DNA from: Cyanobacteriota bacterium
Lineage (GTDB): Bacteria; Cyanobacteriota; Vampirovibrionia; LMEP-6097
Direction: 5' to 3'
Assembly: GCA_027618255.1 (NCBI GenBank)
Contig: JAQCFG010000001.1
Span: 1,225-65,224, forward strand
Length of the DNA: 64,000 nt
The translations under genes were made by a program, and so were the position numbers. The notes under the pieces were generated by a model. That model was not told the DNA's origin, searched no databases, and worked only from the letters and a program-made list of their open reading frames with translations. Below are positions 9,754 through 21,749 of this stretch, piece by piece (position 1 is the stretch's first letter; each line of letters starts with the position of its first letter).

Positions 9754-9808
9754 AGAAACTGAAGAATAATTCTGGCCATTTTACAAATAATTTCTTATAA
9801 TTATCAAT

Positions 9809-10144
9809 ATGAAATACTTCCTATACTGCCGTAAGTCCACTGACTCAGAGGATAGGCAAATGCTTTCTATTGAAGCCCAGCTTCAAGAACTTCGAGACTA
9901 TGCTCGTAAAGAGAAGCTTGATGTAATCAAAGAATTCACTGAATCCAAAACAGCAAAGAAACCTGGTAGAGAAATTTTCAATGAAATGATCTCAGAGATT
10001 GAAGCTGGTAAGGCTGATGGCATAGTAGCTTGGAATCCAGACAGATTAGCTCGCAACTCAGTCGATGGTGGAAGAATAATTTATCTTATTGATGAAGCTG
10101 TAATAAAAGATCTCAAATTTCTGGTTCTTGCTCTGAGATTTTAG
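9809..10144 (+). pseudogene. 5' fragment (N-terminal ~105 codons) of a large serine recombinase gene
   Basis: Its product aligns residue for residue with the first 105 aa of the intact recombinase at 15540..17171 (about 85% nt identity, including the promoter region from ~9770). Similarity ends near 10123, then 6 unrelated codons and a stop follow. Confidence 0.7.
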
Positions 10145-10298
10145 CTACTGCATCATAGCCAAGTTTTTCGATTGCACCTTTTAGTTTTCTTGAATTTGCT
10201 CCAAGGGCTTCGTATCCACTTAAAACTACTGATTTTGCTAAATTTCCTACGCTGATATTACTGTTGCTCATGTTTATATAACTATATTGTACTTGCAA
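10113..10298 (-). CDS. Small hypothetical protein
   Basis: 61-aa ORF immediately downstream of, and on the same strand as, the 366-aa gene; there is no other support. Confidence 0.25.
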   Translation of the reverse strand: MQVQYSYINMSNSNISVGNLAKSVVLSGYEALGANSRKLKGAIEKLGYDAVAKISEQEPEI

Positions 10299-10307
10299 TT
10301 TTGATAG

Positions 10308-11408
10308 TTATTTTGAATTACTCTCTTGAATTTGAGCAAAAAGTTCGCCAAGATCGACAATTTTTTTACCTTCAAATTTTTTCTGAAAGTACTCATCTGC
10401 ATCTTCAGTATTTGCAATAAAGCAACCTTGTTCTTGGATTAATCTTTCTAATTCTTCTACACTTTGCTTTTTAATTGACGATCCAATTTGTGCAGCAAGC
10501 CTGTGACTGTTTGCTAAAACTTTTGCTTGTGTTTGGCTTGAATTAAATCCTGATTCTCCAGAGTGGGCTACCGCTTCTGCTTCTAGGTCTGAATCAATAT
10601 AGCCATCGAGTAGTCTTGCAAGTTCAGTGTTATATAGTCTATGTAAAGTTCCTTGAACTCTATCTTTTCTAGCACCTTTACGAAAATCATTTCTTAAAGC
10701 TTTCCAGAGCATTACTTTTTCTTTTCTAGTAGCTTTATCTTTAAAATCTTGATAACTTTTATAACCAAACTTTTTAGCTTTAGATTCAGCTAGAGTTTTC
10801 AACTCGAAACTTTCCCTTAAAATCCCTTTCTTTTCCATGTAAGTAAGTGCCTTATGGTAGTCACGAAAAGTCTGAATTCGTTCTGGACTTAAACTAGGTC
10901 TTCTGTGTTTCAGTAAGGCAAGTTGTTCTAATGTTTTTGGATAGCTGACACCAATATCTTGCGCATTACCTGATGCTGCTGCCTCAAAATATTGTTGAGT
11001 ATGTTTGAGCTCATGTTTTAGTATCGTTTTGATTTTGTCTAAGCTTAACTTACCTCTTGTTTTGATACTGTTTATTTCAACAATAATTGAATTTGTTTCT
11101 GGTGAATAAGCTGCACTAAATTCTTGCTCAGATTTTTTTGAATTGATAATATATACGTCAGGTTTAAACTCTTTTGGAATTCCGAGTTCTTGTGCTTCTT
11201 TATCTATGACTTTGGCTAAAAAATTTTGTAACCTTTGTGTTTCTTTATCTCTAGAATTACTTAAGCTCATCAATGAAATTTCTGCTCTAGTTTTTAAAGG
11301 TCTTAATTTTCTTTTCAGTCGTTTTGGAAATTCTTCAAGCTGTTTATCCAGCCCTAGCCGAGAGGCAAACCCCATACTTGTGCAAGCTAATTGTTGAATT
11401 CTACTCAT
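10308..11408 (-). CDS. Hypothetical Lys-rich protein with an HExxH motif
   Basis: 366-aa ORF containing LKHELKHTQQ, a possible zinc-metallopeptidase motif; no other recognisable domain. Confidence 0.4.
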   Translation of the reverse strand: MSRIQQLACTSMGFASRLGLDKQLEEFPKRLKRKLRPLKTRAEISLMSLSNSRDKETQRLQNFLAKVIDKEAQELGIPKEFKPDVYIINSKKSEQEFSAAYSPETNSIIVEINSIKTRGKLSLDKIKTILKHELKHTQQYFEAAASGNAQDIGVSYPKTLEQLALLKHRRPSLSPERIQTFRDYHKALTYMEKKGILRESFELKTLAESKAKKFGYKSYQDFKDKATRKEKVMLWKALRNDFRKGARKDRVQGTLHRLYNTELARLLDGYIDSDLEAEAVAHSGESGFNSSQTQAKVLANSHRLAAQIGSSIKKQSVEELERLIQEQGCFIANTEDADEYFQKKFEGKKIVDLGELFAQIQESNSK

Positions 11409-11733
11409 GACCTTTCTATATAAAGATAAGTTATTGAAATTATTGATATTTTTAGGTGTTTTTGCTTATGACTTTTTGTAGCTACTAGCGCGCCACTTCG
11501 TGGCTTGCATCCTTTTGATTTTTTAGCTCCGTTTCATCTGTCTGCTTTACTAACGGCTACAGCAGCCATGATGAAACGAAGCCAAAAAATACAGTGTTAG
11601 CTAATGGGACAGCAGAGAGGGTGTTAAGAAAGACCGCTCTTCTGTCTGCTCGCGTCTCAGCCTCGAGCAAGCGAGCAGCCCAAAGGGCTGCGAGCGTTCC
11701 CAGTTAGGCTTGGCTGGGCTTGAGGTGGGTAAA

Positions 11734-11928
11734 TGGCGCGTCCGGAAGGATTTGAACCTTCGACCATGGTCAAGCCAAATACAATTACCAGTTTACTCAA
11801 TAGACCTAAATCGGCTAAAGCCGAAGTGAATTTTTAATATGTGATTTGCTTTGCAAATCACTGGTTTTGAGAGCACTTCTAGGCTTTTAACCGATTGATC
11901 GAGGGCTAGATCTTGCGAACACTCCTCT
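11734..11928. repeat. Island-end repeat unit A (tRNA 3'-end-like ~30 nt, a spacer with hairpin gtgatttgctttgcaaatcac, and a degenerate tRNA-Lys-like anticodon arm in the opposite orientation)
   Basis: Near-identical to unit B and about 80% identical to unit C. It starts with tggcgcgtccggaaggatttgaaccttcgacc, the reverse complement of a tRNA T-arm, acceptor 3' strand and CCA. Confidence 0.7.
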
Positions 11929-11968
11929 AAAAAACAAAAAGAACCCTAAAGGGCTCTTTTTGTTTTTT
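11929..11968. terminator. Bidirectional intrinsic terminator palindrome (A-run, 17-bp stem, T-run)
   Basis: aaaaacaaaaagaaccc-taaa-gggctctttttgttttt; it has the same architecture as the palindrome at 17363..17402. Confidence 0.6.
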
Positions 11969-11972
11969 AATT

Positions 11973-12160
11973 GTGCGTCCGGAAGGATTTGAACCTTCGA
12001 CCATGGTCAAGCCAAATGCAATTACCAGTTTACTCAATAGACAATAGTGGCTTGACCAAAATCGGCTAAAGCCGAAGTGAATTTTTAATATGTGATTTGC
12101 TTTGCAAATCACTGGTTTGAGAGCACTTCTTAGCTTTTAACTAATTGATCGAAATTCAGA
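11973..12160. repeat. Island-end repeat unit B
   Basis: Second tandem copy of unit A; it contains cttagcttttaactaattg, a degenerate tRNA-Lys anticodon stem-loop. Confidence 0.7.
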
Positions 12161-12176
12161 TTCTACTGGCTACTCC

Positions 12177-12355
12177 ACATCCCCGCAGCCAACTGGCATT
12201 CCGAGCCCCTTATCGGTTGCCCGCTTCCAGGGATTCTTGTGTTCTCAGCTTCCCCACTAGTGTATTTTGCTCTAGGAATTTTTTGAGAGCATAGCTCTGG
12301 CTGCTGTGTAACAGGAATACAGGCAGAGATATGCTCGATAAAAAATTCCATGGCA
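12177..12355 (-). pseudogene. Inverted copy of the last ~176 bp of the serine recombinase gene (left arm of an inverted repeat)
   Basis: It is the reverse complement of 16975..17150 with only a few mismatches. The spurious ORF 12163..12351 encodes SGQPIRGSECQLAAGM, identical to the recombinase C-terminus. Confidence 0.75.
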
Positions 12356-12592
12356 AAGCAAGGAGGAGCAGAGCGACGACGCGCTAGTTTCTGTCAGCGA
12401 GGGCTTTAGCTTAGCCTGTCCAGAGGAGCGTAGCGACGTAGGGAAAGCAATCTCCCAACTTAAGCTACTAACAGCCCTAAAGTGCCACTTCAGACTTTAT
12501 AGCACAACCTTATTTCAGCACGTGGAGCAAGACGCAAGGTGGCTTGCGGAACCCAGTTGAGACAAGTGAAACGCAGGCTCAACTGGAAAAAA

Positions 12593-14935
12593 TCAAGAAG
12601 TAACTTTTTCTTTTAACTGATTCAGTTTTTGTTCTTTCTGTTCTTTAATTTGTTGATTATTAGGGTCATCAAAAGAGACAAAATTTGAACACAAGGCATT
12701 ATAATGCTCTTTATCTTTCAGCTCCAAACACTCAACAATATTTTTTATAATTTGGCTACATTCGTTTATGTCAGAATGTTTGATAAAACTTTCACTAGAT
12801 CCACTATGAGAATAATTATGTACAAACTTTTCTATTCGAGTTGCCTGTATTTTTTCATCAATTAAAAAATGTAACTTTGAAGACCAAGATTTTGAATCTG
12901 GGCATTTCATTCCCAAATATGCCTCCAAAAACTTTCTAATAATATTCCCCAATATATAATGTTGTTCAAACTCCGCGGAAGGATTTTTATAAAATTTATG
13001 AATTAAATAAAAAAGATAAATATATTCCGACTTAAATTTCTTAAGCTGCCAAGGTAGCTTTTTGATTGAAGATGAATTTTTATACTTATTGTGTGTCCTT
13101 TCAATAAAGTAAAACGGTGCTTCATCAAGTTTATTGTTGTTTTGCAACTTAAGTTTTTCTTTGATAAAATCCTTAACCAAATTAAAGAATTCTAGATTAT
13201 GAGTAGAAATAAAAAGTTGTTTGCATTGATTATCTCCCAACCTTTCCCTAATAAAAGAGTACACATTATACAAATGGTTACTATCAAGACTAGAAATTGG
13301 GTCATCAATAAAAACAACAGTTTCAGAAAGATTTGTATTTTTATCTTCTAGGCTAGCAATAAAATAAGCAAAGGATATTGCTGTCTTCTCACCTTCACTT
13401 AAATTTTTGGCCGGCTTGTTGTCTCTTAATAATTTAAAAAGGCCTTTTTCATTAGTTTCAAATACCAAGTTGTCACTATTAAATAGGATTTGCAAATATT
13501 CATTTACTTTCTTAGCCCCATTTGCATTTTCAGAAAGCCTATTCTCTAAACTCACAATTTCAGACTTTAATTCACATATCAGAGTTTTCTTTTCAGATAT
13601 TAACTTCTCTTGTTCTTTTATAAGCTCTTGATTATCTATATAGTTCGTATCATTAATAAATTCATGTGCAAAGTGTTGTATTAATTTCTCTTTCAATAAT
13701 TCTCTCTCTGAATTAAAGTTATTTGTTTTTGCATTGTGCTTATCAATCACTTGATTGATTTTTTCTACAATATTCCTAATCACCTCTACTTCAGTTTTCT
13801 CAAAATCTCTTAAATCCCTAGGTGTCAATTCCTCAAAAGGATTTTCACTTTTTTGCACTAGGCAGGCCTTTAAGTTTTCAAGATATTCAGTAGAAACAGC
13901 AAGTTCATTTTTTAATATACCTTTCAAATTTTCATATTCTAATTGGAAATCATCATAGAATCTTGCTTTATCAATTAACCTTACATCTATCTCGTTAATC
14001 ACTTTAATTTTTTGATCTATCTGGTCTTTTAGTAGGTTTATTTCAGTACGTAATTTGCTCAGATCATCTGAAAAATGTTTTTCTAGCTTCCCGATTAAAT
14101 CAGCGGGTAATTTATTACCACAAAATTTACAATTATCACTATCTTTATGTAAATCCTTACCATGTTCAACCCATCTATTAAGTTCGGTATTTTCCAATAA
14201 CTTCTCTATGGTTTCTGCAATTGGTTTTTTCACCAAAAGTTCTTCTGTTCTTTGGTAAAGATTTTCACTATCAATTTTCAGCAGTATTAAAAATGATATA
14301 CCTTCTTTGACATTTGTATCTTGATAAGAGCGTATCGCTCTTTGTAGAGCATCATCTGTAAGTATTTTGTTCTCATCATTTTTTAGTACAGCACTTTCAA
14401 CATAAGGAATAAATCTATTTTTATCAAAGTTAACAATTGACAAAAGGTTCTTTATATTACTGGCTCTTTCAGAAAGAGATTTTATTAAATTCTGTTGGAG
14501 TAATCCTGTCTCTCCAGCTAAATTAACTAAACTTTCATTCTCTACCTTCAGTTCGTTAGCTTTAGAGCTTAACCGTTCTTGAAGCTCAATATTTTGTTCA
14601 CCAAGAATAAAGATAGGTTGAATCTCATCATCTTGCTGATGCCATTTTAAATTTCTATCTATAAAATCGATATTAAAAACCCTTATATCAATTACCTGAG
14701 TTAGGTCTGAACTTGATTTCAGTCCTTTTTCAGTTTCAAAAACAAACTCTGCATTAGGGTAGTCCTCATGCCTCTCTTGTCTCTCAAAACATTGAAAGAT
14801 ACGGGATAAAGAAGTTTTTCCAGTGTAATTCCAGCCATATATAAGATTATATTTTTCAAAATTTGGCAGCGATTCACTCCAAGTGAAATCCTCAAAGACT
14901 GCAAATTTCTTTATTGTATCTATCTTCACTATCAC
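12593..14935 (-). CDS. AAA_13-family ABC-type ATPase with a coiled-coil CxxC zinc hook and a C-terminal PrrC/RloC-like anticodon nuclease region (RloC-like)
   Basis: The N-terminus KKFAVFEDFTW...NLIYGWNYTGKTSLSRIF carries the AAA_13 Walker A. Also present are a DSDNCKFCGNKL zinc hook in the coiled coil, LSEGEK, VVFIDDPISSLD, FISTHNLEFF, and a C-terminal GNIIRKFLEAY motif (R-x3-E) followed by His residues about 35 aa later. Confidence 0.6.
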   Translation of the reverse strand: MIVKIDTIKKFAVFEDFTWSESLPNFEKYNLIYGWNYTGKTSLSRIFQCFERQERHEDYPNAEFVFETEKGLKSSSDLTQVIDIRVFNIDFIDRNLKWHQQDDEIQPIFILGEQNIELQERLSSKANELKVENESLVNLAGETGLLQQNLIKSLSERASNIKNLLSIVNFDKNRFIPYVESAVLKNDENKILTDDALQRAIRSYQDTNVKEGISFLILLKIDSENLYQRTEELLVKKPIAETIEKLLENTELNRWVEHGKDLHKDSDNCKFCGNKLPADLIGKLEKHFSDDLSKLRTEINLLKDQIDQKIKVINEIDVRLIDKARFYDDFQLEYENLKGILKNELAVSTEYLENLKACLVQKSENPFEELTPRDLRDFEKTEVEVIRNIVEKINQVIDKHNAKTNNFNSERELLKEKLIQHFAHEFINDTNYIDNQELIKEQEKLISEKKTLICELKSEIVSLENRLSENANGAKKVNEYLQILFNSDNLVFETNEKGLFKLLRDNKPAKNLSEGEKTAISFAYFIASLEDKNTNLSETVVFIDDPISSLDSNHLYNVYSFIRERLGDNQCKQLFISTHNLEFFNLVKDFIKEKLKLQNNNKLDEAPFYFIERTHNKYKNSSSIKKLPWQLKKFKSEYIYLFYLIHKFYKNPSAEFEQHYILGNIIRKFLEAYLGMKCPDSKSWSSKLHFLIDEKIQATRIEKFVHNYSHSGSSESFIKHSDINECSQIIKNIVECLELKDKEHYNALCSNFVSFDDPNNQQIKEQKEQKLNQLKEKVTS

Positions 14936-15068
14936 TATCAGGCATCCATTCTATCAAGTAAGTCTCTAATTACTTTTAAACTATATATTTGAGTGAAAAC
15001 CCTCAGTGGTCTTATTTTAATATCAAAAAACCTCAACTGCTAGACTTATATAGTCTAGAGGAAATTTT

Positions 15069-15485
15069 ATGTCTGGTATCACAAATTTAGGTCACATAGT
15101 AACAGATAGAGCTAACGTAGCGCAGGATATTCAAACTAGAGACAAAGTCCGTGAGTTTGGCGATATTGTTGCTGGTGTTTTATCAGGAGCTAATGACGGT
15201 GAACCAAAAGCAAGCTCCCCTGAAGACCAAGCTGCTGCTACAAGATATGCAGCAAATGTTGCAGGAGCACATTTGCTAATGGGAACAGGCAATGTCACAC
15301 CAAAACAAGCTAATCAGTTAAAAAATGACGCTGACTTTGCAAGAAGAGCTGCTGGAGGCGATGAAGTTATTTTAGAGGATGTTATCAAAGTTGCTGAACA
15401 AGTTGCCAATAATGGAGATCCAGAAGTTGGTGGGACTATGATTCTATCGGTTGCAGAGCATCTAGGTAAAATTGCACAATCTTAG
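15069..15485 (+). CDS. Hypothetical Ala/Gly-rich protein, divergent from the RloC-like gene
   Basis: 138-aa ORF with a low-complexity N-terminus MSGITNLGHIV, similar in style to other uncharacterised proteins in this window. Confidence 0.35.
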   Translation: MSGITNLGHIVTDRANVAQDIQTRDKVREFGDIVAGVLSGANDGEPKASSPEDQAAATRYAANVAGAHLLMGTGNVTPKQANQLKNDADFARRAAGGDEVILEDVIKVAEQVANNGDPEVGGTMILSVAEHLGKIAQS

Positions 15486-15539
15486 GAACAAGCAAATTTT
15501 ACTGGCCATTTCTTTTTTAGTTTTGTATAATCCATAATA

Positions 15540-17171
15540 ATGGATAAATATTTTATTTACTGTAGGAAATCCTCCGACTCAGAGGATAGACAAATGCTTT
15601 CTATTGAAGCTCAATTACAAGAACTCAGAGACTATGCTCGTAAAGAAAAGCTTGAAATAGTTAGAGAGTTCACCGAGTCTAAAACAGCGAAGAAACCTGG
15701 CAGAGAGATCTTTAATGAAATGATCTCAGAGATTGAAGCTGGTAAGGCTGATGGGATAGTAGCCTGGAATCCAGATCGCTTAGCAAGGAACTCTGTTGAT
15801 GGTGGAAGAATAATTTATCTTATTGATGAAGCTGTAATAAAGGATCTTAAGTTTCCGACTGCTTGGTTTGATAATTCACCTCAAGGCAAATTCAATCTCT
15901 CTATAGCTTTTGGGCAAGCAAAATTTTATGTCGATAATCTTAGACAGAACGTTCATCGTGGCATACGCCAGAAACTACGCAAAGGACAGTATTGCAATAA
16001 AGCTCCTCTTGGATATATTAATCACCCTAAAACTAGAACTATAGAACCTGATCCTGTTGAGTTTGACTTGATGAGAAAAACTTTTGATCTATTCCTTACT
16101 GGAAACTGTTCACAGACTGAGATTCGACAAGCAATGTTTGAAATGGGAATTAAGAATCAAACTGGTGATAGAATCCACAGAGATAAAGTAAAAAAGACTC
16201 TTCAGAATCCATTTTATTATGGCTACTCCTATCACAAAGGAGAACTCTACGAAGCCTCTCACCAGCCTATGATAACAAAAGCTGAGCATGAAGAAGTACA
16301 AAGAATCCTAAAACTCAAATCTAAGAACAAATACAAAACTACTAAGAAGGATAAGAAGAAAAGAGATTTCTTTTTCTTAGGTTTTGAGAAGTGCGGTGAG
16401 TGTGGCTGTAGTTTTACAGCAGAAAGACATGAAAAGAAAAAATATAACGCAGTCTGGAAATATTACAGATGCTCTAAGAAAAAGAAAGACATGGATTGCG
16501 ATCAACCTTACCTCAAAGAAGAAATACTTTCTGGGCAAGTAAAAGATACTGTCTCAAGGATAGCCTTAAGTGATGACTGGAGCGAGCTTGCGCTTAAGAC
16601 TCTAGACTCCTGGGCAGACACAGAGCGACAGTCATCACTTAAAACAGCCAAGAACCTTGAGTCAGATCTAAAAATCATCAGAGAAAAGCTTGAAAGGCTA
16701 CTAGATCTTCATTTGGATGGTGTTTTATCATCTGGTGAATACAAAAGCAAAAAAAATGCTCTAATAAGCTCCAAGCTAAAACTTGAAACTCAGCTCTCTC
16801 AAATCAAACAAGACGGTGTAGTTTGGCTCGAACCAAGCAAGACACTTATAAAAGAAGCTAATAGAGCCAAGAAATTAGTTGAAGAAGAAAATTATCACGA
16901 AATGCGCTCTTTACTTCAAAAAGCAGGCTCGAACCAATTAATACGAGATAGAAAGTTCAGCATGAACTACCTTGAGCCATGGAATTTTCTTATCGAGCTA
17001 AACTCTTCATTCCTGTTACACAGCAGCCAGAGCTATGCTCTCACTGAATTACCTTCAGAAAATGCGCTAGTGGGGTGGGCGGGAATAAAAAAATCCCCGC
17101 GCAGCGGGCAACCGATAAGGGGCTCGGAATGCCAGTTGGCTGCGGGGATGTCAGAATGGTGCGTCCGCTAG
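15540..17171 (+). CDS. Large serine recombinase (resolvase/invertase catalytic domain, recombinase domain and zinc ribbon)
   Basis: The N-terminus YCRKSSDSEDRQMLSIEAQ carries the catalytic Ser context; CGECGCS...YYRCS is the zinc ribbon; there is a C-terminal coiled coil. The stop codon lies inside repeat unit C. Confidence 0.8.
   Translation: MDKYFIYCRKSSDSEDRQMLSIEAQLQELRDYARKEKLEIVREFTESKTAKKPGREIFNEMISEIEAGKADGIVAWNPDRLARNSVDGGRIIYLIDEAVIKDLKFPTAWFDNSPQGKFNLSIAFGQAKFYVDNLRQNVHRGIRQKLRKGQYCNKAPLGYINHPKTRTIEPDPVEFDLMRKTFDLFLTGNCSQTEIRQAMFEMGIKNQTGDRIHRDKVKKTLQNPFYYGYSYHKGELYEASHQPMITKAEHEEVQRILKLKSKNKYKTTKKDKKKRDFFFLGFEKCGECGCSFTAERHEKKKYNAVWKYYRCSKKKKDMDCDQPYLKEEILSGQVKDTVSRIALSDDWSELALKTLDSWADTERQSSLKTAKNLESDLKIIREKLERLLDLHLDGVLSSGEYKSKKNALISSKLKLETQLSQIKQDGVVWLEPSKTLIKEANRAKKLVEEENYHEMRSLLQKAGSNQLIRDRKFSMNYLEPWNFLIELNSSFLLHSSQSYALTELPSENALVGWAGIKKSPRSGQPIRGSECQLAAGMSEWCVR
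16975..17150. repeat. Right arm of the ~176-bp inverted repeat (the recombinase 3' end)
   Basis: Reverse complement of 12177..12355. Confidence 0.75.
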
Positions 17172-17359
17172 GATTTGAACCTAGGACAATGGTCAAGCCA
17201 AATGCGATTACCAGTCAACCCAATGTCCTTAGGGCTTGACCAAAATCGGCTAAAGCCGAAGTGATTTTTTTATGTAATTTGCTTTGCAAATTACTGGTCT
17301 GAGAGCACTTCTTGGCTTTTAACCGATTGGTCCCGGGTTCAGGTTCTAGTGGAAGTACC
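17156..17359. repeat. Island-end repeat unit C (31 nt identical to the tRNA-Lys 3' end, a spacer with hairpin, and a pseudo tRNA-Lys 3' half in plus orientation)
   Basis: tggtgcgtccgctaggatttgaacctaggac matches 17405..17435. Downstream, gagagcacttcttggcttttaaccgattggtcc mimics the D-arm and anticodon arm of tRNA-Lys(UUU). Confidence 0.7.
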
Positions 17360-17362
17360 TTA

Positions 17363-17402
17363 AAAATCAAAAATCACCCACAAGGGGTGATTTTTGATTT
17401 TT
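17363..17402. terminator. Perfect 18-bp palindromic intrinsic terminator (A-run, stem, T-run) abutting the tRNA-Lys 3' end
   Basis: aaaaatcaaaaatcaccc-acaa-gggtgatttttgattttt. Confidence 0.65.
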
Positions 17403-17404
17403 AA

Positions 17405-17481
17405 TGGTGCGTCCGCTAGGATTTGAACCTAGGACCAATCGGTTAAAAGCCGAGTGCTCTACCGGGCTGAGCTACGGACGC
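17405..17481 (-). tRNA. tRNA-Lys (anticodon UUU) with encoded CCA
   Basis: Reverse complement GCGTCCGTAGCTCAGCCCGGTAGAGCACTCGGCTTTTAACCGATTGGTCCTAGGTTCAAATCCTAGCGGACGCACCA folds by hand into a cloverleaf with a 7-bp acceptor stem, anticodon loop CTTTTAA and T-loop TTCAAAT. Confidence 0.85.
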
Positions 17482-17600
17482 GTATTTAATACGCGCAGAC
17501 GCAAATAGTGTCCTTCTGGTCGTTCAGGACACTAGGCTCAAATATATCATGTGATTTTTGTATGTTTCTGAAGACTTTCTGAATTTTAGCCAGAACTGGT

Positions 17601-18923
17601 CTAGTAAACTAAGGGCAAATCAGTCCACTTAGAGGTAAAACACGGCGACCGATGCCCCTGCTTGGCGTTCCAGCCTGGTTTCTGCTCTTTATTAGAGCGC
17701 TTAGCGCCACTCGCTGCCCAAAACACCGTATTGAGCCCCAATGATAAATTCAGACCATCAACCAAATTAGACAGCTCTTGTTTTTGTCCCGTATTACTAA
17801 CTTGAGCATCCCAAATTGCCAGCTGCCGATCATCCTTATTAGCAAAATTGCTCAGAACCACTCCTGCCTTTCTATAAGAAAGCCCCTCTTCAAAAATATC
17901 ATCCAATATTACAAAAGCAGCTCGAATCAAATCAGGAGTATAAGAAGTTGGCTCCGCAAAATTATAATCAGCGGCAAGCTCTCGACCTCTGTAATGAGAT
18001 GCATCATCTGCCCGTAAAAAAATCTGCAAGGATTTCAATTCTTGATTTTGCACTCGAAGCTTCATCGCGGCACTAGCAACAAAACTGGCAACAGCCTCTC
18101 GCAGTTCTGGTAAAGTCTTGACTTTCGCACCAAATGATCTTGAACAAATGATGGATTTGTTTTGACTAGTGATTGCAGTTGCATCCAAGTCCAAACAAAC
18201 TTTGCCAGCAAGCTCCAAGACAGTGCGCATCGCATTGATACTAGCAACTTGCTTGAGCCAATCTCTATCAACATATTTCAAATCAAGAGCCGTCTTAATC
18301 CCTCTCTGGCTGAGGGTTCTCTGATAACCGCGACCAACTCCCCAAACATCAGCGAGCTCAACTTCTGACAAACAAAAATCAATTTGTGCTTCAGCCAAAG
18401 CCAAATCACTTTGATCAAAATACAAACTATAAACTCCAGTTCCATTTTCTTTGGCTATCTTGTTAGCGACCTTGGCAAGAGTCTTGTTTAGAGCAATGCC
18501 AATTGAAACAGGAATACCGGTGCAGCGTTCTACTTTGTTTTGAATTTGTTTGGCGCGAGTAATTAATTTACTTGGGCTATCCTTGGTCGTGTCCCCGAGT
18601 AAAACAAAGGCTTCATCGATTGAATATATTTCTTTGTGCTCCACTTCTTGGGCAAGTACCGACATCACTCGAGTTGACATATCACTATAAAGAGCAAAAT
18701 TGGAAGAGCGCTTATGTACTTGGTGTTTCCTGAAAATATACTCCAGCTTGAAAACCGGTTCACCCATTGCAATACCAAGGGCTTTTGCTTCCCGGGAGCG
18801 AGCAATTACACAACCATCATTATTTGATAAAACCACCACTGGTTTATTTTTCAAGCTCGGGTCAAAGACCCTCTCGCAAGAAACAAAAAAACTATTGCAA
18901 TCTAATAAAGCAAAAACCTTCAC
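17601..18923 (-). CDS. umuC: Y-family translesion DNA polymerase UmuC
   Basis: The N-terminus [20 protein letters not shown]...[23 protein letters not shown] and the SIDEAF catalytic motif are near-canonical for UmuC. Confidence 0.8.
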
Positions 18924-19249
18924 TCATAACCTCGTATCGAATGCAAGACCACTCCCCACAGCTCTTCTTGCTGACCGGCTTTGCAGTCAGAGAAACGCAT
19001 TAACAATAATTCAGTATCGCCATTAACAACAATCAAACTTGATGCCTTTGGAGTAATTGATCTATCGACAATTAGAAGATCACCATCATTAATACCCAAG
19101 TCTTGATGTCTTTGACCACTCATACGCATCACAAAACTAGCAGAAGGGTGACGTAAAAGATAACGATTAAAATCCAAAGCAAAATCGAATTGCTCCGCTT
19201 GTTCAAATGAGCCCATCTGCTCTGAATTCATAAATCGTAGTCCTGCCAT
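18920..19249 (-). CDS. umuD: UmuD-like protein (S24 LexA-like fold) of UmuD' length that apparently lacks the Ser/Lys dyad
   Basis: [36 protein letters not shown]...GVVLHSIR aligns with E. coli Umu[37 protein letters not shown]...GVVIHVVK. The gene overlaps umuC by 4 nt. Confidence 0.6.
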
Positions 19250-19438
19250 AGGACAATTATACTTACTTTCGTAAGGAGCGACGCTAAATATACTGTTTTA
19301 CCTCTTGACTATGACTTGCGTCAATATGCAAGATCGAATTAGAGCCCAAAAGCCCTGGTTTCACTAATCATTAAAATAAATCCCCAGGGGCTCAATGACC
19401 CCTTTCGATTTAGAGTCGCTTTTGCAATAATCAAAACC

Positions 19439-19675
19439 ATGGTCGAACAAATCAAGAAATTCAATTTCATAAAACCAAACGATAAGCAAAAAACCTATGC
19501 CGCAATAATATTTGCTGTGACTGGTGGTACTCTGATGTACACCGCCTGGCAATTCATTGTTCCAACGGAGTTAGACATGCCACCAATTAATCCTTTCGCA
19601 CTAGTATTCTTGGTACTCATAAGTTTAATTTTCATAAGAGTAGGTTATAATGTTTACTCAAAGGAGAGGAAATAA
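19439..19675 (+). CDS. Small hypothetical membrane protein
   Basis: 78-aa ORF with two hydrophobic helices; weak support. Confidence 0.3.
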   Translation: MVEQIKKFNFIKPNDKQKTYAAIIFAVTGGTLMYTAWQFIVPTELDMPPINPFALVFLVLISLIFIRVGYNVYSKERK

Positions 19676-19972
19676 ATGGACCCAGTCTGGTGGATTATTA
19701 TTTCAGTCATGCCAATACTAATTTTTGGACTCTTGGTAATACAAGCAGATAGACAAGCTCCTGAAGAAGCTTCAGAGCAACAACCCTAAATCTATAAAGG
19801 AGAGGGGAATGATTTTAAAAACTAATAAGGAGAGTATCCTGAGTAGCAAAGCTCAGGGTACGAGCAAAAACGCACATCCCGGCTATTGTAAGAGCTCAGG
19901 GCTTAGATATACCCTTTCGACAAAAGATGGCGGTAGGAGCTCAGGGGCTATATATACCCTTGCAGATGAAAA

Positions 19973-20047
<75 letters not shown>

Positions 20048-20069
20048 ACGGAGCAAGCTCATCAACAAA

Positions 20070-21749
20070 ATGAGTTTCTCTAAGAATACTACAACAACTT
20101 TAGTATCGGTGCTAGTATTGATGATTTTTTCATTTTTAAACCCTCTTCTTGCTAATACCAATTACCAAAGTAAGCTAGTTTTAAGCAAAAATACCAGTAT
20201 TGACCAAATTCGCTTCTTTAGGGATAGCTATATTTATAGCAATTATGGTCAGCTTTATTTTAAAGATTCTGCCATCAAACTACTCAACTCTAATGAGCAG
20301 GGCATAGTGATCAATGACATTTTTATCGACAACAATGATTTCTATCTAGCTACTGACATGGGGATCTTTCATAATTACCGCAGGATTTTTAGCAAAGAAC
20401 CTTGCCAGCAAATTATCAAAACACCTTCGCAAATATTTATCGCTTGCCAGCAAGGAATCTATAACGCCAAAATCGAAAAGAAAACTCTTCAGACTCATTT
20501 TGACTGGCAGCTCGATGAACTCAGTCCGCAAAATCCCAACTTCATTAGTCTCAATAAATCCAAAACCAAAGTCAAATACGCAAGCGCTACTAATGGATTC
20601 TTTTATCACGAGCGAAGCACTAGTTCCGTTAGTAAAGAGGGAATAGATTTGCGCAAGAAATCTAATCAGTGGATTAATAGAAGTTATGGACTCAAACGAG
20701 ACTTTCAAGACTCATTTGGTTTTGGTCGATTCCTAGAGCATGAAGCCAAATTATACCTAGCAACAAGCTCTGGCATTTTCACGAGTGCTAATCAAGGAGA
20801 ATCATGGGTAAAACACAACACTGGGCTCAAAGCCAATGCTGATGGCTTCTTTAGCATTAGGCAAATCAATCTTTACAATGGTCAGCTATTAGCTTTAACT
20901 AGTCAGGGTTTGTATCAATCACTTATACAAGAAGAACTTGACTGGCACCAAATCACAATTGCAAATACAAAAAAATCCTCAAACTATCAAAGTGATTTTT
21001 TGTCACTAGATATTCTTGATTCCACGATAATTCTTAGTAACTCACAAGGACAAGTTTTTAATTTGTCACCAGATACAAGTTATACAGCTTCAATCCACAA
21101 AGAAGAAAATCTACAACAAAATACCATAGAAGCAATAATCAAAGCAGAACCGAAGATCCAAGACTTACATAATATTGCATTAGAATTTGCTGGTATCCCC
21201 ACAGGCAAAAATTTTCGCACTTACAAAAGACAGGCTCGTCTAAGAAATCTCGTACCCGATTTTGAAGCATTTGCTGAGCATGACAGCCAAGACATTCTTT
21301 CAATTGAGACAGATGCTGGAGATAGCTTCACCTCAAATACAAGTAGCATCAACACTGATTTTGGCAAAACCAATCTTGATCGCGATGACGATAAAATCAA
21401 TACCGGAATCAAGTTTAAATGGAACCTGAGTAACTTAATTTATGACCCAGAAATCAATGACATTAATACTAGTGCAAGAATCACCGCCAATATCAGAGAG
21501 AACATTCTGACTGAACTTACCCAGATTTATTACAATCGCAAAGAACTTATTTATAGATTACTCAAACAAAGCCTCAATGAAACGACAGATGGTAATTACA
21601 AAGACAAACTACGTCTTGAAGAATACACTGCTCAACTTGACGCCCGTACCGGAGCTTGGTTTAGTCAAGAGCTTGAAAAAACTATCCAGAGCATAGTCGA
21701 GAATCTCGATCCAGAGAATCGAGCTCGAATACTCGCTCTTTACACATAG
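20070..21749 (+). CDS. Secreted hypothetical protein (Ser/Asn-rich)
   Basis: The ORF track start at 19809 overlaps tRNA-Gln. The first in-frame ATG after the tRNA is at 20070 and gives MSFSKNTTTTLVSVLVLMIFSFLNPLLA, which looks like a signal peptide. Confidence 0.5.
   Translation: MSFSKNTTTTLVSVLVLMIFSFLNPLLANTNYQSKLVLSKNTSIDQIRFFRDSYIYSNYGQLYFKDSAIKLLNSNEQGIVINDIFIDNNDFYLATDMGIFHNYRRIFSKEPCQQIIKTPSQIFIACQQGIYNAKIEKKTLQTHFDWQLDELSPQNPNFISLNKSKTKVKYASATNGFFYHERSTSSVSKEGIDLRKKSNQWINRSYGLKRDFQDSFGFGRFLEHEAKLYLATSSGIFTSANQGESWVKHNTGLKANADGFFSIRQINLYNGQLLALTSQGLYQSLIQEELDWHQITIANTKKSSNYQSDFLSLDILDSTIILSNSQGQVFNLSPDTSYTASIHKEENLQQNTIEAIIKAEPKIQDLHNIALEFAGIPTGKNFRTYKRQARLRNLVPDFEAFAEHDSQDILSIETDAGDSFTSNTSSINTDFGKTNLDRDDDKINTGIKFKWNLSNLIYDPEINDINTSARITANIRENILTELTQIYYNRKELIYRLLKQSLNETTDGNYKDKLRLEEYTAQLDARTGAWFSQELEKTIQSIVENLDPENRARILALYT

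What the first reader, a model, noticed from the sequence alone, without database searches (positions are those of the whole stretch)
18920..19249. UmuD homolog of UmuD' size that appears to lack the self-cleavage Ser/Lys dyad
By eye I aligned this 109-aa protein to E. coli UmuD over HPSA...DGDLLIVD...GVV.H. At UmuD's ASGDSM (Ser60 nucleophile) the protein has MSGQRH, so Ser becomes Arg. At UmuD's FTVKKLQ (Lys97) it has ELLLMRF, so Lys becomes Leu. It has no N-terminal arm or Cys-Gly site and is about as long as processed UmuD'.

It would then be a constitutively UmuD'-like, RecA-independent accessory subunit for the adjacent, apparently intact UmuC. This bears on mutagenesis control in this organism and on umuDC as flanking cargo next to an integration hotspot.
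Basis: inference. Interest (0 to 1): 0.5.

Follow-up and report, generated by a model that had tools for sequence, protein, structure and literature searches.

The report
Catalytically dead mini-UmuD beside UmuC
This small gene encodes a shrunken, conserved relative of the mutagenesis protein UmuD that can no longer cut itself, so the adjoining error-prone DNA polymerase is probably switched on without the usual RecA-triggered cleavage step; similar proteins turn out to be common in uncultured bacteria.

Summary
The ORF at 18920..19249 (-) encodes a 109-aa Peptidase_S24/UmuD-fold protein. UmuD Ser60 is replaced by Arg47.

- An ~18-residue internal deletion, which by alignment covers UmuD residues ~101-118.
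- A 25-residue N-terminal arm whose tip, MAGLRFM, is invariant.
- Conserved chromosomal synteny (tRNA-Gln, umuD-like, umuC, tRNA-Lys), so umuDC is native here, not cargo.

The gene is under purifying selection (dN/dS 0.05-0.19). It overlaps an intact umuC by 4 bp. That umuC keeps its catalytic residues, clamp motif, RecA-NT-like region and C-terminal tail.

The protein is not a one-off. In 271 aligned S24 relatives (a sample enriched for such proteins), 92 carry the same deletion and only 8 of those keep the dyad, against 149 of 179 full-length forms. All five more distant members whose downstream gene could be read sit directly upstream of a umuC.

Best reading: a born-processed, non-cleaving Pol V accessory subunit. 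RecA is bypassed for the cleavage step only. The closest precedent is phage P1/P7 HumD. I found no description of this class in the literature searched. Function is inferred, not shown.

The parts
18920..19249 (-). Mini-UmuD: a 109-aa S24-fold protein without the Ser/Lys dyad (Arg47, Met84). It lacks ~18 residues matching UmuD ~101-118. Its N-terminal arm (residues 1-25) has an invariant tip, MAGLRFM.
17601..18923 (-). umuC: a 440-aa Y-family polymerase with a GTG start that overlaps the mini-UmuD stop codon (GTGA). It keeps catalytic D8 and D103/E104, a QLAIW clamp motif, a RecA-NT-like region and the conserved C-terminal tail ...[15 protein letters not shown].
   Evidence: IMS, IMS_C and DUF4113 domains; PRK03609, 332 bits over the full length; 42% identity to E. 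coli UmuC with these motifs aligned.
19256..19261 (-). A perfect TATAAT exactly 6 nt upstream of the ATG, conserved in all five orthologous loci. No Shine-Dalgarno sequence is present, so this is a candidate promoter for a leaderless mRNA.
   Evidence: The consensus promoter scan found no paired -35/-10.
19262..19275 (.). Palindrome CTTAC-N4-GTAAG abutting the -10 box: a candidate operator. It is a perfect ACTTAT-N4-ATAAGT in L001 and degenerate in L005 and L008.
   Evidence: one hit in the window; 28 of 100 shuffles give at least one hit, so it is not significant by count.
17405..17481 (-). tRNA-Lys(UUU), the downstream boundary of the conserved umuDC locus. Its 3' side is the integration site for the neighbouring mobile elements.
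19973..20047 (-). tRNA-Gln(UUG), the upstream boundary of the conserved locus.

Best explanation
The gene encodes a non-catalytic, miniaturised UmuD'-type accessory subunit of a Pol V-like translesion polymerase. It is co-transcribed and probably translationally coupled with umuC.

It keeps five strands of the UmuD' beta core and the conserved C-terminal strand (LWGVV). It has lost three things: the Ser/Lys dyad, a usable cleavage site with its propeptide, and ~18 residues that by alignment match UmuD ~101-118. By my recollection of the UmuD' structure, that segment is the beta5-beta6 hairpin. The protein is therefore made directly in its final form, and the RecA*-stimulated self-cleavage checkpoint of E. 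coli UmuD is absent.

Inferred steps:
- The former active-site cleft still serves as the docking groove for the UmuC C-terminal tail. The invariant Arg47 and Arg85 may supply the positive charge that Lys97 gives in E. coli.
- The invariant N-terminal tip (Ala-Gly-Leu-Arg-Phe after Met removal) plays the role of the UmuD' Gly25-Phe26 arm tip, which is modelled to reach into UmuC near its active site.
- Control of mutagenesis would then rest on transcription (a candidate operator overlaps the -10 box) and on RecA binding to the RecA-NT-like motif of UmuC.
For: Shown here:
- S24/UmuD fold and homology.
- Ser60 to Arg and Lys97 to Met in four independent alignments.
- Five orthologues of identical length: four distinct proteins, and all five genes, including the window and L005. 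Arg47 is invariant among them. Position 84 is Met, Cys or Lys.
- dN/dS is 0.05-0.19. Codons 2-6 carry only synonymous changes across the five loci, so translation starts at Met1 and the tip is constrained at the protein level.
- A 4-bp GTGA stop/start overlap with umuC in the window and in L001, L007 and L008.
- UmuC keeps its active-site residues, clamp motif, RecA-NT-like region and C-terminal tail.
- Conserved synteny.

Class-level evidence:
- Short S24 proteins with the same deletion keep the dyad in only 8 of 92 cases, against 149 of 179 for full-length forms (Fisher p 2e-34).
- The more distant short members P0170 (CPR Kaiserbacteria), P0167, P0155, L018 and L019 each lie immediately upstream of an IMS+IMS_C+DUF4113 umuC.
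- The UmuCs most similar to the window's pair with short dyad-less partners.

From the literature:
- A published AlphaFold Pol V model places the UmuC C-terminal carboxylate against UmuD' S36/T71/K73 and E69. That is UmuD S60/T95/K97/E93, the former active site. The same model puts one UmuD' arm tip near the UmuC active site (PMC11791011).
- Glu80, the counterpart of E93, is retained here and in 46 of 70 short members. A basic residue at position 97 or 98 is retained in 48 of 70.

Precedents:
- P7/P1 HumD starts at M-GFPSP with no propeptide. From my own knowledge (McLenigan et al. 1999), it complements UmuD'.
- Also from my own knowledge (Nohmi et al. 1988), Ser60Ala does not impair engineered UmuD'.
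Against: - No functional data exist for any member.
- NCBIfam UmuD and HumD models score far below their cut-offs (59.6 versus 110; 38 versus 120).
- Depending on the alignment, the protein carries either about 13 residues N-terminal to the UmuD' start or an insertion in the arm.
- In E. coli, a non-cleavable UmuD with only 7 extra residues (UmuD 18) gives low mutagenesis (PMC5342242). A residual extension might therefore keep the protein in a UmuD-like rather than a UmuD'-like state.
- The proposed role of Arg47 is inference. Across the wider class the residue at this position is variable (Ala 17, Ser 16, Arg 11 of 70).
- The samples used for the short/long statistics were selected with dyad-less profiles, so they are not unbiased.
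Confidence: 0.6

Rival explanations
1. A permanent 'uncleaved-UmuD-state' manager. Because it can never be processed and keeps residues ahead of the UmuD' start, the protein would hold UmuC in a non-mutagenic or checkpoint-like mode, or modulate other polymerases or the clamp, rather than activating translesion synthesis.
For: - In one alignment, residues 2-13 align with UmuD 13-24. LRFM then falls opposite the UmuD clamp-binding motif TFPLF.
- E. coli non-cleavable UmuD variants with residual arms give little mutagenesis (PMC5342242).
- From established knowledge of E. coli UmuD2C, uncleaved UmuD has checkpoint and anti-mutagenic roles.
Against: - A second alignment places Ala2-Gly3...Phe6 on the Cys24-Gly25-Phe26 site itself, making the protein born-processed.
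- The partner UmuC keeps all catalytic and interaction motifs under conservation. That is hard to reconcile with a constitutive inhibitor as its only partner.
- Many class members start 0-5 residues before the GF motif, as HumD does.
Confidence: 0.17
2. Still a self-cleaving or otherwise active S24 peptidase that uses displaced residues, for example Ser44 as nucleophile and the subfamily-invariant Lys90 as base.
For: Ser44 and Lys90 are invariant in the four distinct orthologous proteins aligned. An Ala-Gly dipeptide exists at residues 2-3.
Against: - Ser44 aligns with UmuD Ser57, which is conserved but is not the nucleophile.
- Lys90 is His in the syntenic, more distant orthologue P0009.
- Cleaving Ala2-Gly3 would remove only two residues.
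- Across the short class, both dyad positions are highly variable.
Confidence: 0.04
3. A decaying remnant: a umuD on its way to becoming a pseudogene, tolerated because UmuC no longer needs it.
For: Loss of the catalytic residues plus an internal deletion. Low scores against curated UmuD models. Annotated as 'hypothetical protein' in NCBI.
Against: - dN/dS is 0.05-0.19 with saturated synonymous sites.
- Identical length in five orthologues down to 61% identity, and 109 aa again in P0009 at 38%.
- A conserved 4-bp overlap with umuC.
- A confident folded core.
- The same architecture recurs next to umuC in unrelated lineages.
Confidence: 0.03
4. A UmuDAb/LexA-like transcriptional regulator of the umuDC operon.
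For: JGI labels cluster members 'SOS-response transcriptional repressor LexA'. A palindrome lies at the promoter.
Against: No DNA-binding domain is present. Only about 25 disordered residues precede the S24 core. The JGI label most likely reflects generic homology-based annotation; this is my inference.
Confidence: 0.03

Closest known systems
E. coli UmuD' (processed UmuD, accessory subunit of Pol V; PDB 1UMU, 1AY9)
   Same: Best sequence and structure match. The gene sits immediately upstream of umuC and overlaps it. It has a disordered N-terminal arm plus a beta core. The conserved motifs [12 protein letters not shown] and WGVV are present, and Glu80 (the counterpart of E93) is retained.
   Different: There is no precursor, no Ser60/Lys97 and no Cys-Gly site. 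About 18 residues matching UmuD ~101-118 are deleted. The arm is longer and has a different tip (AGLRFM versus GFPSP). It scores below the NCBIfam UmuD cut-off.
Phage P1/P7 HumD
   Same: It is translated directly at UmuD' size with no propeptide (M-GFPSPAADY). From my own knowledge (McLenigan et al. 1999), it functions as UmuD' without cleavage.
   Different: HumD keeps a Ser and a Lys at the aligned dyad positions and keeps the full-length core. It has no cognate umuC next to it, and a LexA site is annotated upstream. The window protein scores 38 bits against a 120-bit cut-off on the HumD model.
YolD/YqjX family small subunits of Gram-positive YqjW/UvrX polymerases
   Same: A non-proteolytic small partner encoded next to a UmuC-like polymerase. 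It has an SH3-like beta core and an N-terminal arm predicted to insert into the polymerase (PMC6511836, PMC12926913).
   Different: It is a different sequence family (PF08863), and the window protein has no Pfam hit to it. YqjX is predicted to be monomeric and not to bind the polymerase C-terminal tail (PMC12926913).
Engineered non-cleavable or truncated E. coli UmuD variants (UmuD S60A, UmuD 8, UmuD 18)
   Same: They are uncleavable and have shortened N-terminal arms. UmuD 18 partially mimics UmuD' (PMC5342242).
   Different: They are laboratory constructs with a full-size core, and they support mutagenesis only weakly. The natural protein has presumably co-evolved with its own UmuC; that is an inference.
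Non-cleavable LexA of Synechocystis PCC 6803
   Same: An S24 family member in the same phylum-level lineage, reported to have lost its nucleophile and cleavage bond while staying functional (as summarised in PMC2921402).
   Different: It is a DNA-binding transcription factor, not a polymerase subunit.

Membership tests
Peptidase S24 (LexA/UmuD) domain family, PF00717 | Sequence match to the family profile above the curated threshold | tested here: met
   28.2 bits against a 23.3 cut-off, residues 12-90.
Peptidase S24 (as an active peptidase) | Nucleophilic Ser at the UmuD Ser60 / LexA Ser119 position | tested here: not met
   Arg47 occupies this position in four alignments and is invariant in the orthologues.
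Peptidase S24 (as an active peptidase) | General-base Lys at the UmuD Lys97 / LexA Lys156 position | tested here: not met
   Met84 in the window; Cys or Lys in orthologues, so the position is unconstrained.
Peptidase S24 (as an active peptidase) | Ala/Cys-Gly scissile bond preceded by a removable N-terminal segment | tested here: not met
   The only Ala-Gly is at residues 2-3. The position aligned to Cys24-Gly25 is Gly13-Ser14 in one alignment and Ala2-Gly3 in another.
UmuD / Pol V accessory subunit (NCBIfam PRK10276) | Score above the curated family cut-off | tested here: not met
   59.6 bits against 110. Only residues 21-86 match.
UmuD / Pol V accessory subunit | Encoded immediately upstream of, and co-oriented with, a UmuC-type Y-family polymerase | tested here: met
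   4-bp overlap with the 440-aa UmuC. The same arrangement is seen in L001, L007 and L008.
UmuD / Pol V accessory subunit | UmuD' three-dimensional fold | tested here: met
   AlphaFold core pLDDT >90. The top Foldseek hits are 1AY9, 8GMT and 1UMU, TM 0.63-0.70. Two of the strands are missing (inferred).
UmuD / Pol V accessory subunit | Homodimerisation and binding to the UmuC C-terminal tail and RecA | not testable with these tools
Only indirect evidence is available: the UmuC tail and the C-terminal strand of the small protein are conserved.
HumD family (NCBIfam NF051876) | Score above the curated cut-off | tested here: not met
   38.1 bits against 120. HumD keeps Ser and Lys and the full core.
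YolD-like (PF08863) | Profile match | tested here: not met
   No hit at E <= 1 in Pfam.
LexA / UmuDAb-type S24 repressors | N-terminal DNA-binding domain | tested here: not met
   No HTH domain is detected. Only about 25 low-confidence residues precede the core.

The most novel reading that the evidence does not exclude
The window protein belongs to a large, phylogenetically scattered and apparently undescribed class of 'mini-UmuD' proteins of about 95-120 aa. They occur in Melainabacteria-type Cyanobacteriota, CPR Kaiserbacteria and many unnamed metagenomic lineages.

In this class, loss of the Ser/Lys dyad goes together with loss of the ~18-residue segment that aligns with UmuD ~101-118. That would mark the segment as a module needed only for RecA*-dependent self-cleavage. 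It would also show that the post-translational checkpoint on Pol V has been discarded repeatedly in nature. The former active site would survive only as the docking groove for the UmuC C-terminus.
Probability: 0.5. Interest if true: 0.6.

Novelty: new variant of a known kind. Interest (0 to 1): 0.5.

Why it matters
In the E. coli paradigm, Pol V is held back by several layers: LexA repression, slow RecA*-dependent UmuD cleavage, proteolysis, and RecA transfer. A natural, conserved UmuD homologue that cannot cleave shows that the cleavage layer is dispensable in some lineages. It also gives a minimal scaffold, five strands and an arm, for asking what UmuD' actually contributes to the polymerase.

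The tight association between dyad loss and loss of the ~18-residue segment suggests a testable structure-function split: a cleavage module versus a polymerase-binding module.

Practically, these genes are currently labelled 'hypothetical protein' or 'LexA'. Surveys that rely on curated UmuD models will therefore undercount Pol V-type mutasomes in uncultured bacteria.

Tried and rejected
- **Complex modelling.** I built a fused mini-UmuD, linker, mini-UmuD, linker, UmuC alignment with 8 paired and 97 unpaired rows. The aim was to see whether the arm tip and the UmuC tail gain confidence in a complex.
- **AFDB search.** A Foldseek search of afdb50, to find annotated structural twins, was unavailable.
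- **Known RNA families.** An Rfam scan of 17200-20200 found only the two tRNAs and sub-threshold noise.
- **Promoter scan.** The consensus scan found no paired -35/-10. The leaderless-promoter idea rests only on the conserved TATAAT.
- **Operator test.** CTTAYNNNNRTAAG occurs once in the window, but 28 of 100 shuffles do as well. TTAC-N4-GTAA occurs three times against 0.8 expected. No recA or lexA is in the window to test a regulon. An S24 profile scan of all window ORFs found only this gene.
- **Literature.** Six full-text searches were completed and a seventh was rejected for syntax. Targeted reading of eight papers found no description of dyad-less short UmuD homologues. This is absence in an open-access library, not proof.
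- **Rejected readings.** Pseudogene, rejected on selection and conservation. LexA-like repressor, rejected because there is no DNA-binding domain. Ser44 as an alternative nucleophile, rejected because it aligns with UmuD Ser57.
Full report
**1. What is there**

The ORF at 18920..19249 on the minus strand encodes 109 aa:

[109 protein letters not shown].

An in-frame stop lies 16 codons upstream, with no start codon in between. The TGA stop overlaps the GTG start of a 440-aa ORF (17601..18923) in the sequence GTGA.

The small protein matches:
- Pfam Peptidase_S24 above its threshold (28.2 versus 23.3 bits);
- E. coli UmuD/UmuD' chains at E 1e-10.

It scores far below the curated cut-offs of the NCBIfam UmuD model (59.6 versus 110) and the HumD model (38 versus 120). 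The large ORF is a complete UmuC-type polymerase, with IMS, IMS_C and DUF4113 domains and 332 bits over the whole PRK03609 model.

**2. The catalytic residues**

phmmer aligns query 19-83 to UmuD 32-96 without a gap. MAFFT alignments of 7, 156 and 8 sequences agree with it. The consequences are:
- UmuD Ser60 (SGDSM) corresponds to Arg47 (SGQRH).
- Lys97 corresponds to Met84, and Lys98 to Arg85.

The E. coli UmuD sequence used for comparison is identical to b1183 of NC_000913.3.

**3.

(a) *An internal deletion.* About 18 residues are missing where UmuD has residues ~101-118. The AlphaFold model has mean pLDDT 82.5, with >90 from residue 31 onward. It shows five strands (38-42, 58-62, 72-76, 81-85, 96-105). 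Its best PDB matches are UmuD' structures at TM ~0.7, ahead of LexA. By alignment, and by my recollection of the UmuD' structure, the lost piece is the beta5-beta6 hairpin.

(b) *An N-terminal arm.* Residues 1-25 are low-confidence and extended. The first seven residues, MAGLRFM, are invariant in all orthologues. Codons 2-6 differ only synonymously among five loci: GCA/GCC, GGA/GGT, CTA/CTG/TTG/CTT, CGA/AGA. Translation therefore starts at Met1, and the tip is constrained at the protein level.

Alignments disagree on how the arm maps onto UmuD. One places Gly13-Ser14-Phe15 on Cys24-Gly25-Phe26, which gives a 13-residue residual extension. Another places Ala2-Gly3...Phe6 on Cys24-Gly25-Phe26, with a 7-residue insertion further along. 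Either way, no propeptide of meaningful size can be removed.

**4. It is a maintained gene**

- Word-indexed and exhaustive profile searches found three further distinct proteins of identical length, at 94, 67 and 61% identity. A fifth orthologue, from locus L005, was found in the genome scan.
- Pairwise dN/dS among the five loci is 0.05-0.19, with synonymous sites near saturation in the deeper pairs.
- Arg47 is invariant. Position 84 is Met, Cys or, in L005, Lys. That is the pattern expected if this position no longer matters for catalysis.
- The exact window protein is in NCBI as MDA0771325.1 / MDA1020521.1, labelled 'MAG: hypothetical protein [Cyanobacteria bacterium]'. Relatives are labelled Candidatus Melainabacteria. 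JGI calls cluster members 'LexA'.

**5. Genomic context**

The order clpP-clpX, LTD-domain protein, large unknown protein, tRNA-Gln, 78-aa ORF, mini-umuD, umuC, tRNA-Lys is seen in the window. It recurs, in whole or in part, in:
- L001/L002;
- L005 and L018;
- the contig of P0009, a 38%-identical 109-aa orthologue that also has Arg and Met at the dyad positions.

The operon is therefore native and vertically inherited.

That side holds:
- partial copies of the tRNA 3' half at 17155-17228, 11969-12042 and 11732-11805;
- a large serine recombinase (15540-17171);
- an 86%-identical copy of the recombinase 5' end at 9812-10111.

These features indicate tandem integrated elements.

**6. The partner polymerase**

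Aligned with E. coli UmuC (42% identity over the full length), the window UmuC keeps:
- Asp8 (Ec D6) and Asp103-Glu104 (Ec D101-E102, SIDEAF);
- Phe at the steric-gate position (Ec Y11);
- QLAIW opposite the clamp motif QLNLF;
- the helix-strand segment aligned to the E. coli RecA-NT region;
- the conserved tail W...SP.[FY]T..W.DLP.V.

Hence 'RecA-independent' can refer only to the cleavage step.

**7. A wider class**

A profile of the four orthologues, searched against 1.84 billion representative proteins, gave 3049 hits at E <= 0.001. I aligned the best 150, together with P0002-P0005, the window protein and E. coli UmuD.

| Group | n | Both Ser and Lys | Neither | Median length | Median residues before Gly25 column |
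|---|---|---|---|---|---|
| Short (same deletion) | 70 | 6 | 46 | 109 aa | 8 |
| Full-length | 86 | 59 | n/a | 149 aa | 25 |

A second sample, the best 120 hits to a 37-member short-class profile, gave 2 of 22 short forms and 90 of 93 long forms with an intact dyad. Pooled, the counts are 8 of 92 against 149 of 179 (Fisher p 2e-34). Both samples were retrieved with dyad-less queries, so they are enriched, not population estimates.

Five more distant short members whose downstream gene could be read each sit directly upstream of an IMS+IMS_C+DUF4113 polymerase:
- P0170 (Candidatus Kaiserbacteria);
- P0167, which also has a divergent HTH_3+S24 repressor gene next to it;
- P0155;
- the short partners in L018 and L019.

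The UmuCs closest to the window's (44-61% identity) pair with such short partners. Dyad loss also occurs in some full-length forms, for example Rivularia PCC 7116 'UmuD' with Ala and Arg.

**8. Mechanism**

*Shown:* the fold, the loss of the catalytic apparatus, purifying selection, the overlap with an intact umuC, and recurrence of this architecture.

*Inferred:* the protein is a born-processed Pol V accessory subunit.

Two literature points make this concrete. First, a published AlphaFold model of Pol V has the last residues of UmuC adding a strand to the UmuD'2 sheet. The UmuC terminal carboxylate contacts UmuD' S36, T71 and K73, and its side chain contacts E69 (PMC11791011, Fig. 7 legend). 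Adding 24 converts these to UmuD S60, T95, K97 and E93, which is the former active site. In the window protein these positions are Arg47, Leu82, Met84 (followed by Arg85) and Glu80. The acidic residue and a nearby positive charge are kept. Across the short class, Glu is kept in 46 of 70 and a basic residue at 97 or 98 in 48 of 70. I therefore propose that the cleft survives as a tail-docking groove, with Arg47/Arg85 replacing Lys97 as the carboxylate partner.

Second, the same model puts one UmuD' arm tip next to the UmuC active site, and single-residue changes at that tip affect mutagenesis (PMC11791011). The invariant MAGLRFM tip fits that role. CPR members have a similar M-G/A-x-x-F start.

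Precedents:
- P7/P1 HumD begins M-GFPSPAADY with no propeptide. From my own knowledge (McLenigan et al. 1999), it substitutes for UmuD'. HumD, however, keeps Ser and Lys and the full core.
- From my own knowledge (Nohmi et al. 1988), Ser60Ala does not impair engineered UmuD'.

Caveat: E. coli UmuD 18, which is uncleavable and has 7 residual residues, supports only weak mutagenesis (PMC5342242). A 'permanent UmuD-state manager' remains a live rival at about 0.17.

**9. Regulation (lead only)**

In all five loci a perfect TATAAT lies exactly 6 nt before the ATG, with no Shine-Dalgarno sequence. This suggests a leaderless transcript.

Abutting the TATAAT is a palindrome: CTTAC-N4-GTAAG in the window, and a perfect ACTTAT-N4-ATAAGT in L001. 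It is degenerate in L005 and L008. It resembles two reported LexA boxes: TTAC-N3-GTAA in Bdellovibrio (PMC8565304) and TAGTACA-N2-TGTACTA in Prochlorococcus (PMC2921402). Its count in the window is not significant, and no lexA or recA is in the window.

**10. Novelty and verdict**

Seven full-text searches were attempted, six of which completed, and eight papers were read in part, including three systematic surveys of bacterial Y-family polymerases and their partners. None described short, dyad-less UmuD homologues.

I rate this a new variant of a known kind. It is a UmuD'-type subunit, but it is not a member of the curated UmuD or HumD families, and it is not an S24 peptidase in the catalytic sense. 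It is foreshadowed by HumD and by the non-proteolytic YolD-type partners, and there is no functional evidence.

Noticed in passing
window 9800-17481: Tandem integrated elements lie at the 3' end of tRNA-Lys. Partial copies of the tRNA 3' half sit at 17155-17228, 11969-12042 and 11732-11805, with accompanying flanking repeats. A large serine recombinase is at 15540-17171, and an 86%-identical 300-nt copy of its 5' end is at 9812-10111.
   Followed up: partly
window 12593-14935 (-): A 780-aa AAA_13 (plus SMC_N-like) ATPase lies inside the integrated region. It may be defence-type cargo.
   Followed up: no
window 19386-19403 (+), and the same place in L001, L005, L007, L008: A conserved G+C-rich hairpin (AGGGGCTCAATGACCCCT) followed by a T-run lies between the mini-umuD promoter and the divergent 78-aa ORF (19439-19675). 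It is nearly invariant across relatives. It has no Rfam match.
   Followed up: partly
window 19256-19261 (-) and orthologous loci: A perfect TATAAT sits exactly 6 nt upstream of the ATG in all five loci, with no ribosome-binding site. This suggests a leaderless mRNA for the umuDC operon.
   Followed up: partly
window 19809-21749 (+): The mechanically listed 646-aa ORF runs across tRNA-Gln (19973-20047, minus strand). The real start is probably the Met near 20073. The product has no Pfam hit, but it is syntenic in relatives (607-657 aa).
   Followed up: no
L013 2707-3324 (-): In an unrelated lineage, a 205-aa HTH_3 + Peptidase_S24 repressor-like gene is divergently transcribed from a short dyad-less umuD and its umuC. 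This is consistent with damage control having moved to the transcriptional level.
   Followed up: no
L005 3137-3463: The orthologue in MAG JABHOV01 has Lys at position 84 (ELLLKRF) while keeping Arg47. The former general-base position therefore drifts freely.
   Followed up: yes
P0186 / P0197 (Rivularia sp. PCC 7116): A full-length (138 aa) cyanobacterial 'UmuD' has Ala at the Ser60 position and Arg at the Lys97 position, while keeping an SAGFPSP site. This Ala/Arg combination is seen in several full-length homologues.
   Followed up: partly
cluster of the window protein: Several public gene calls start at Met7 (103 aa). The synonymous-only variation in codons 2-6 argues that these are mis-called. 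Public names are 'hypothetical protein' (NCBI) or 'SOS-response transcriptional repressor LexA' (JGI).
   Followed up: yes
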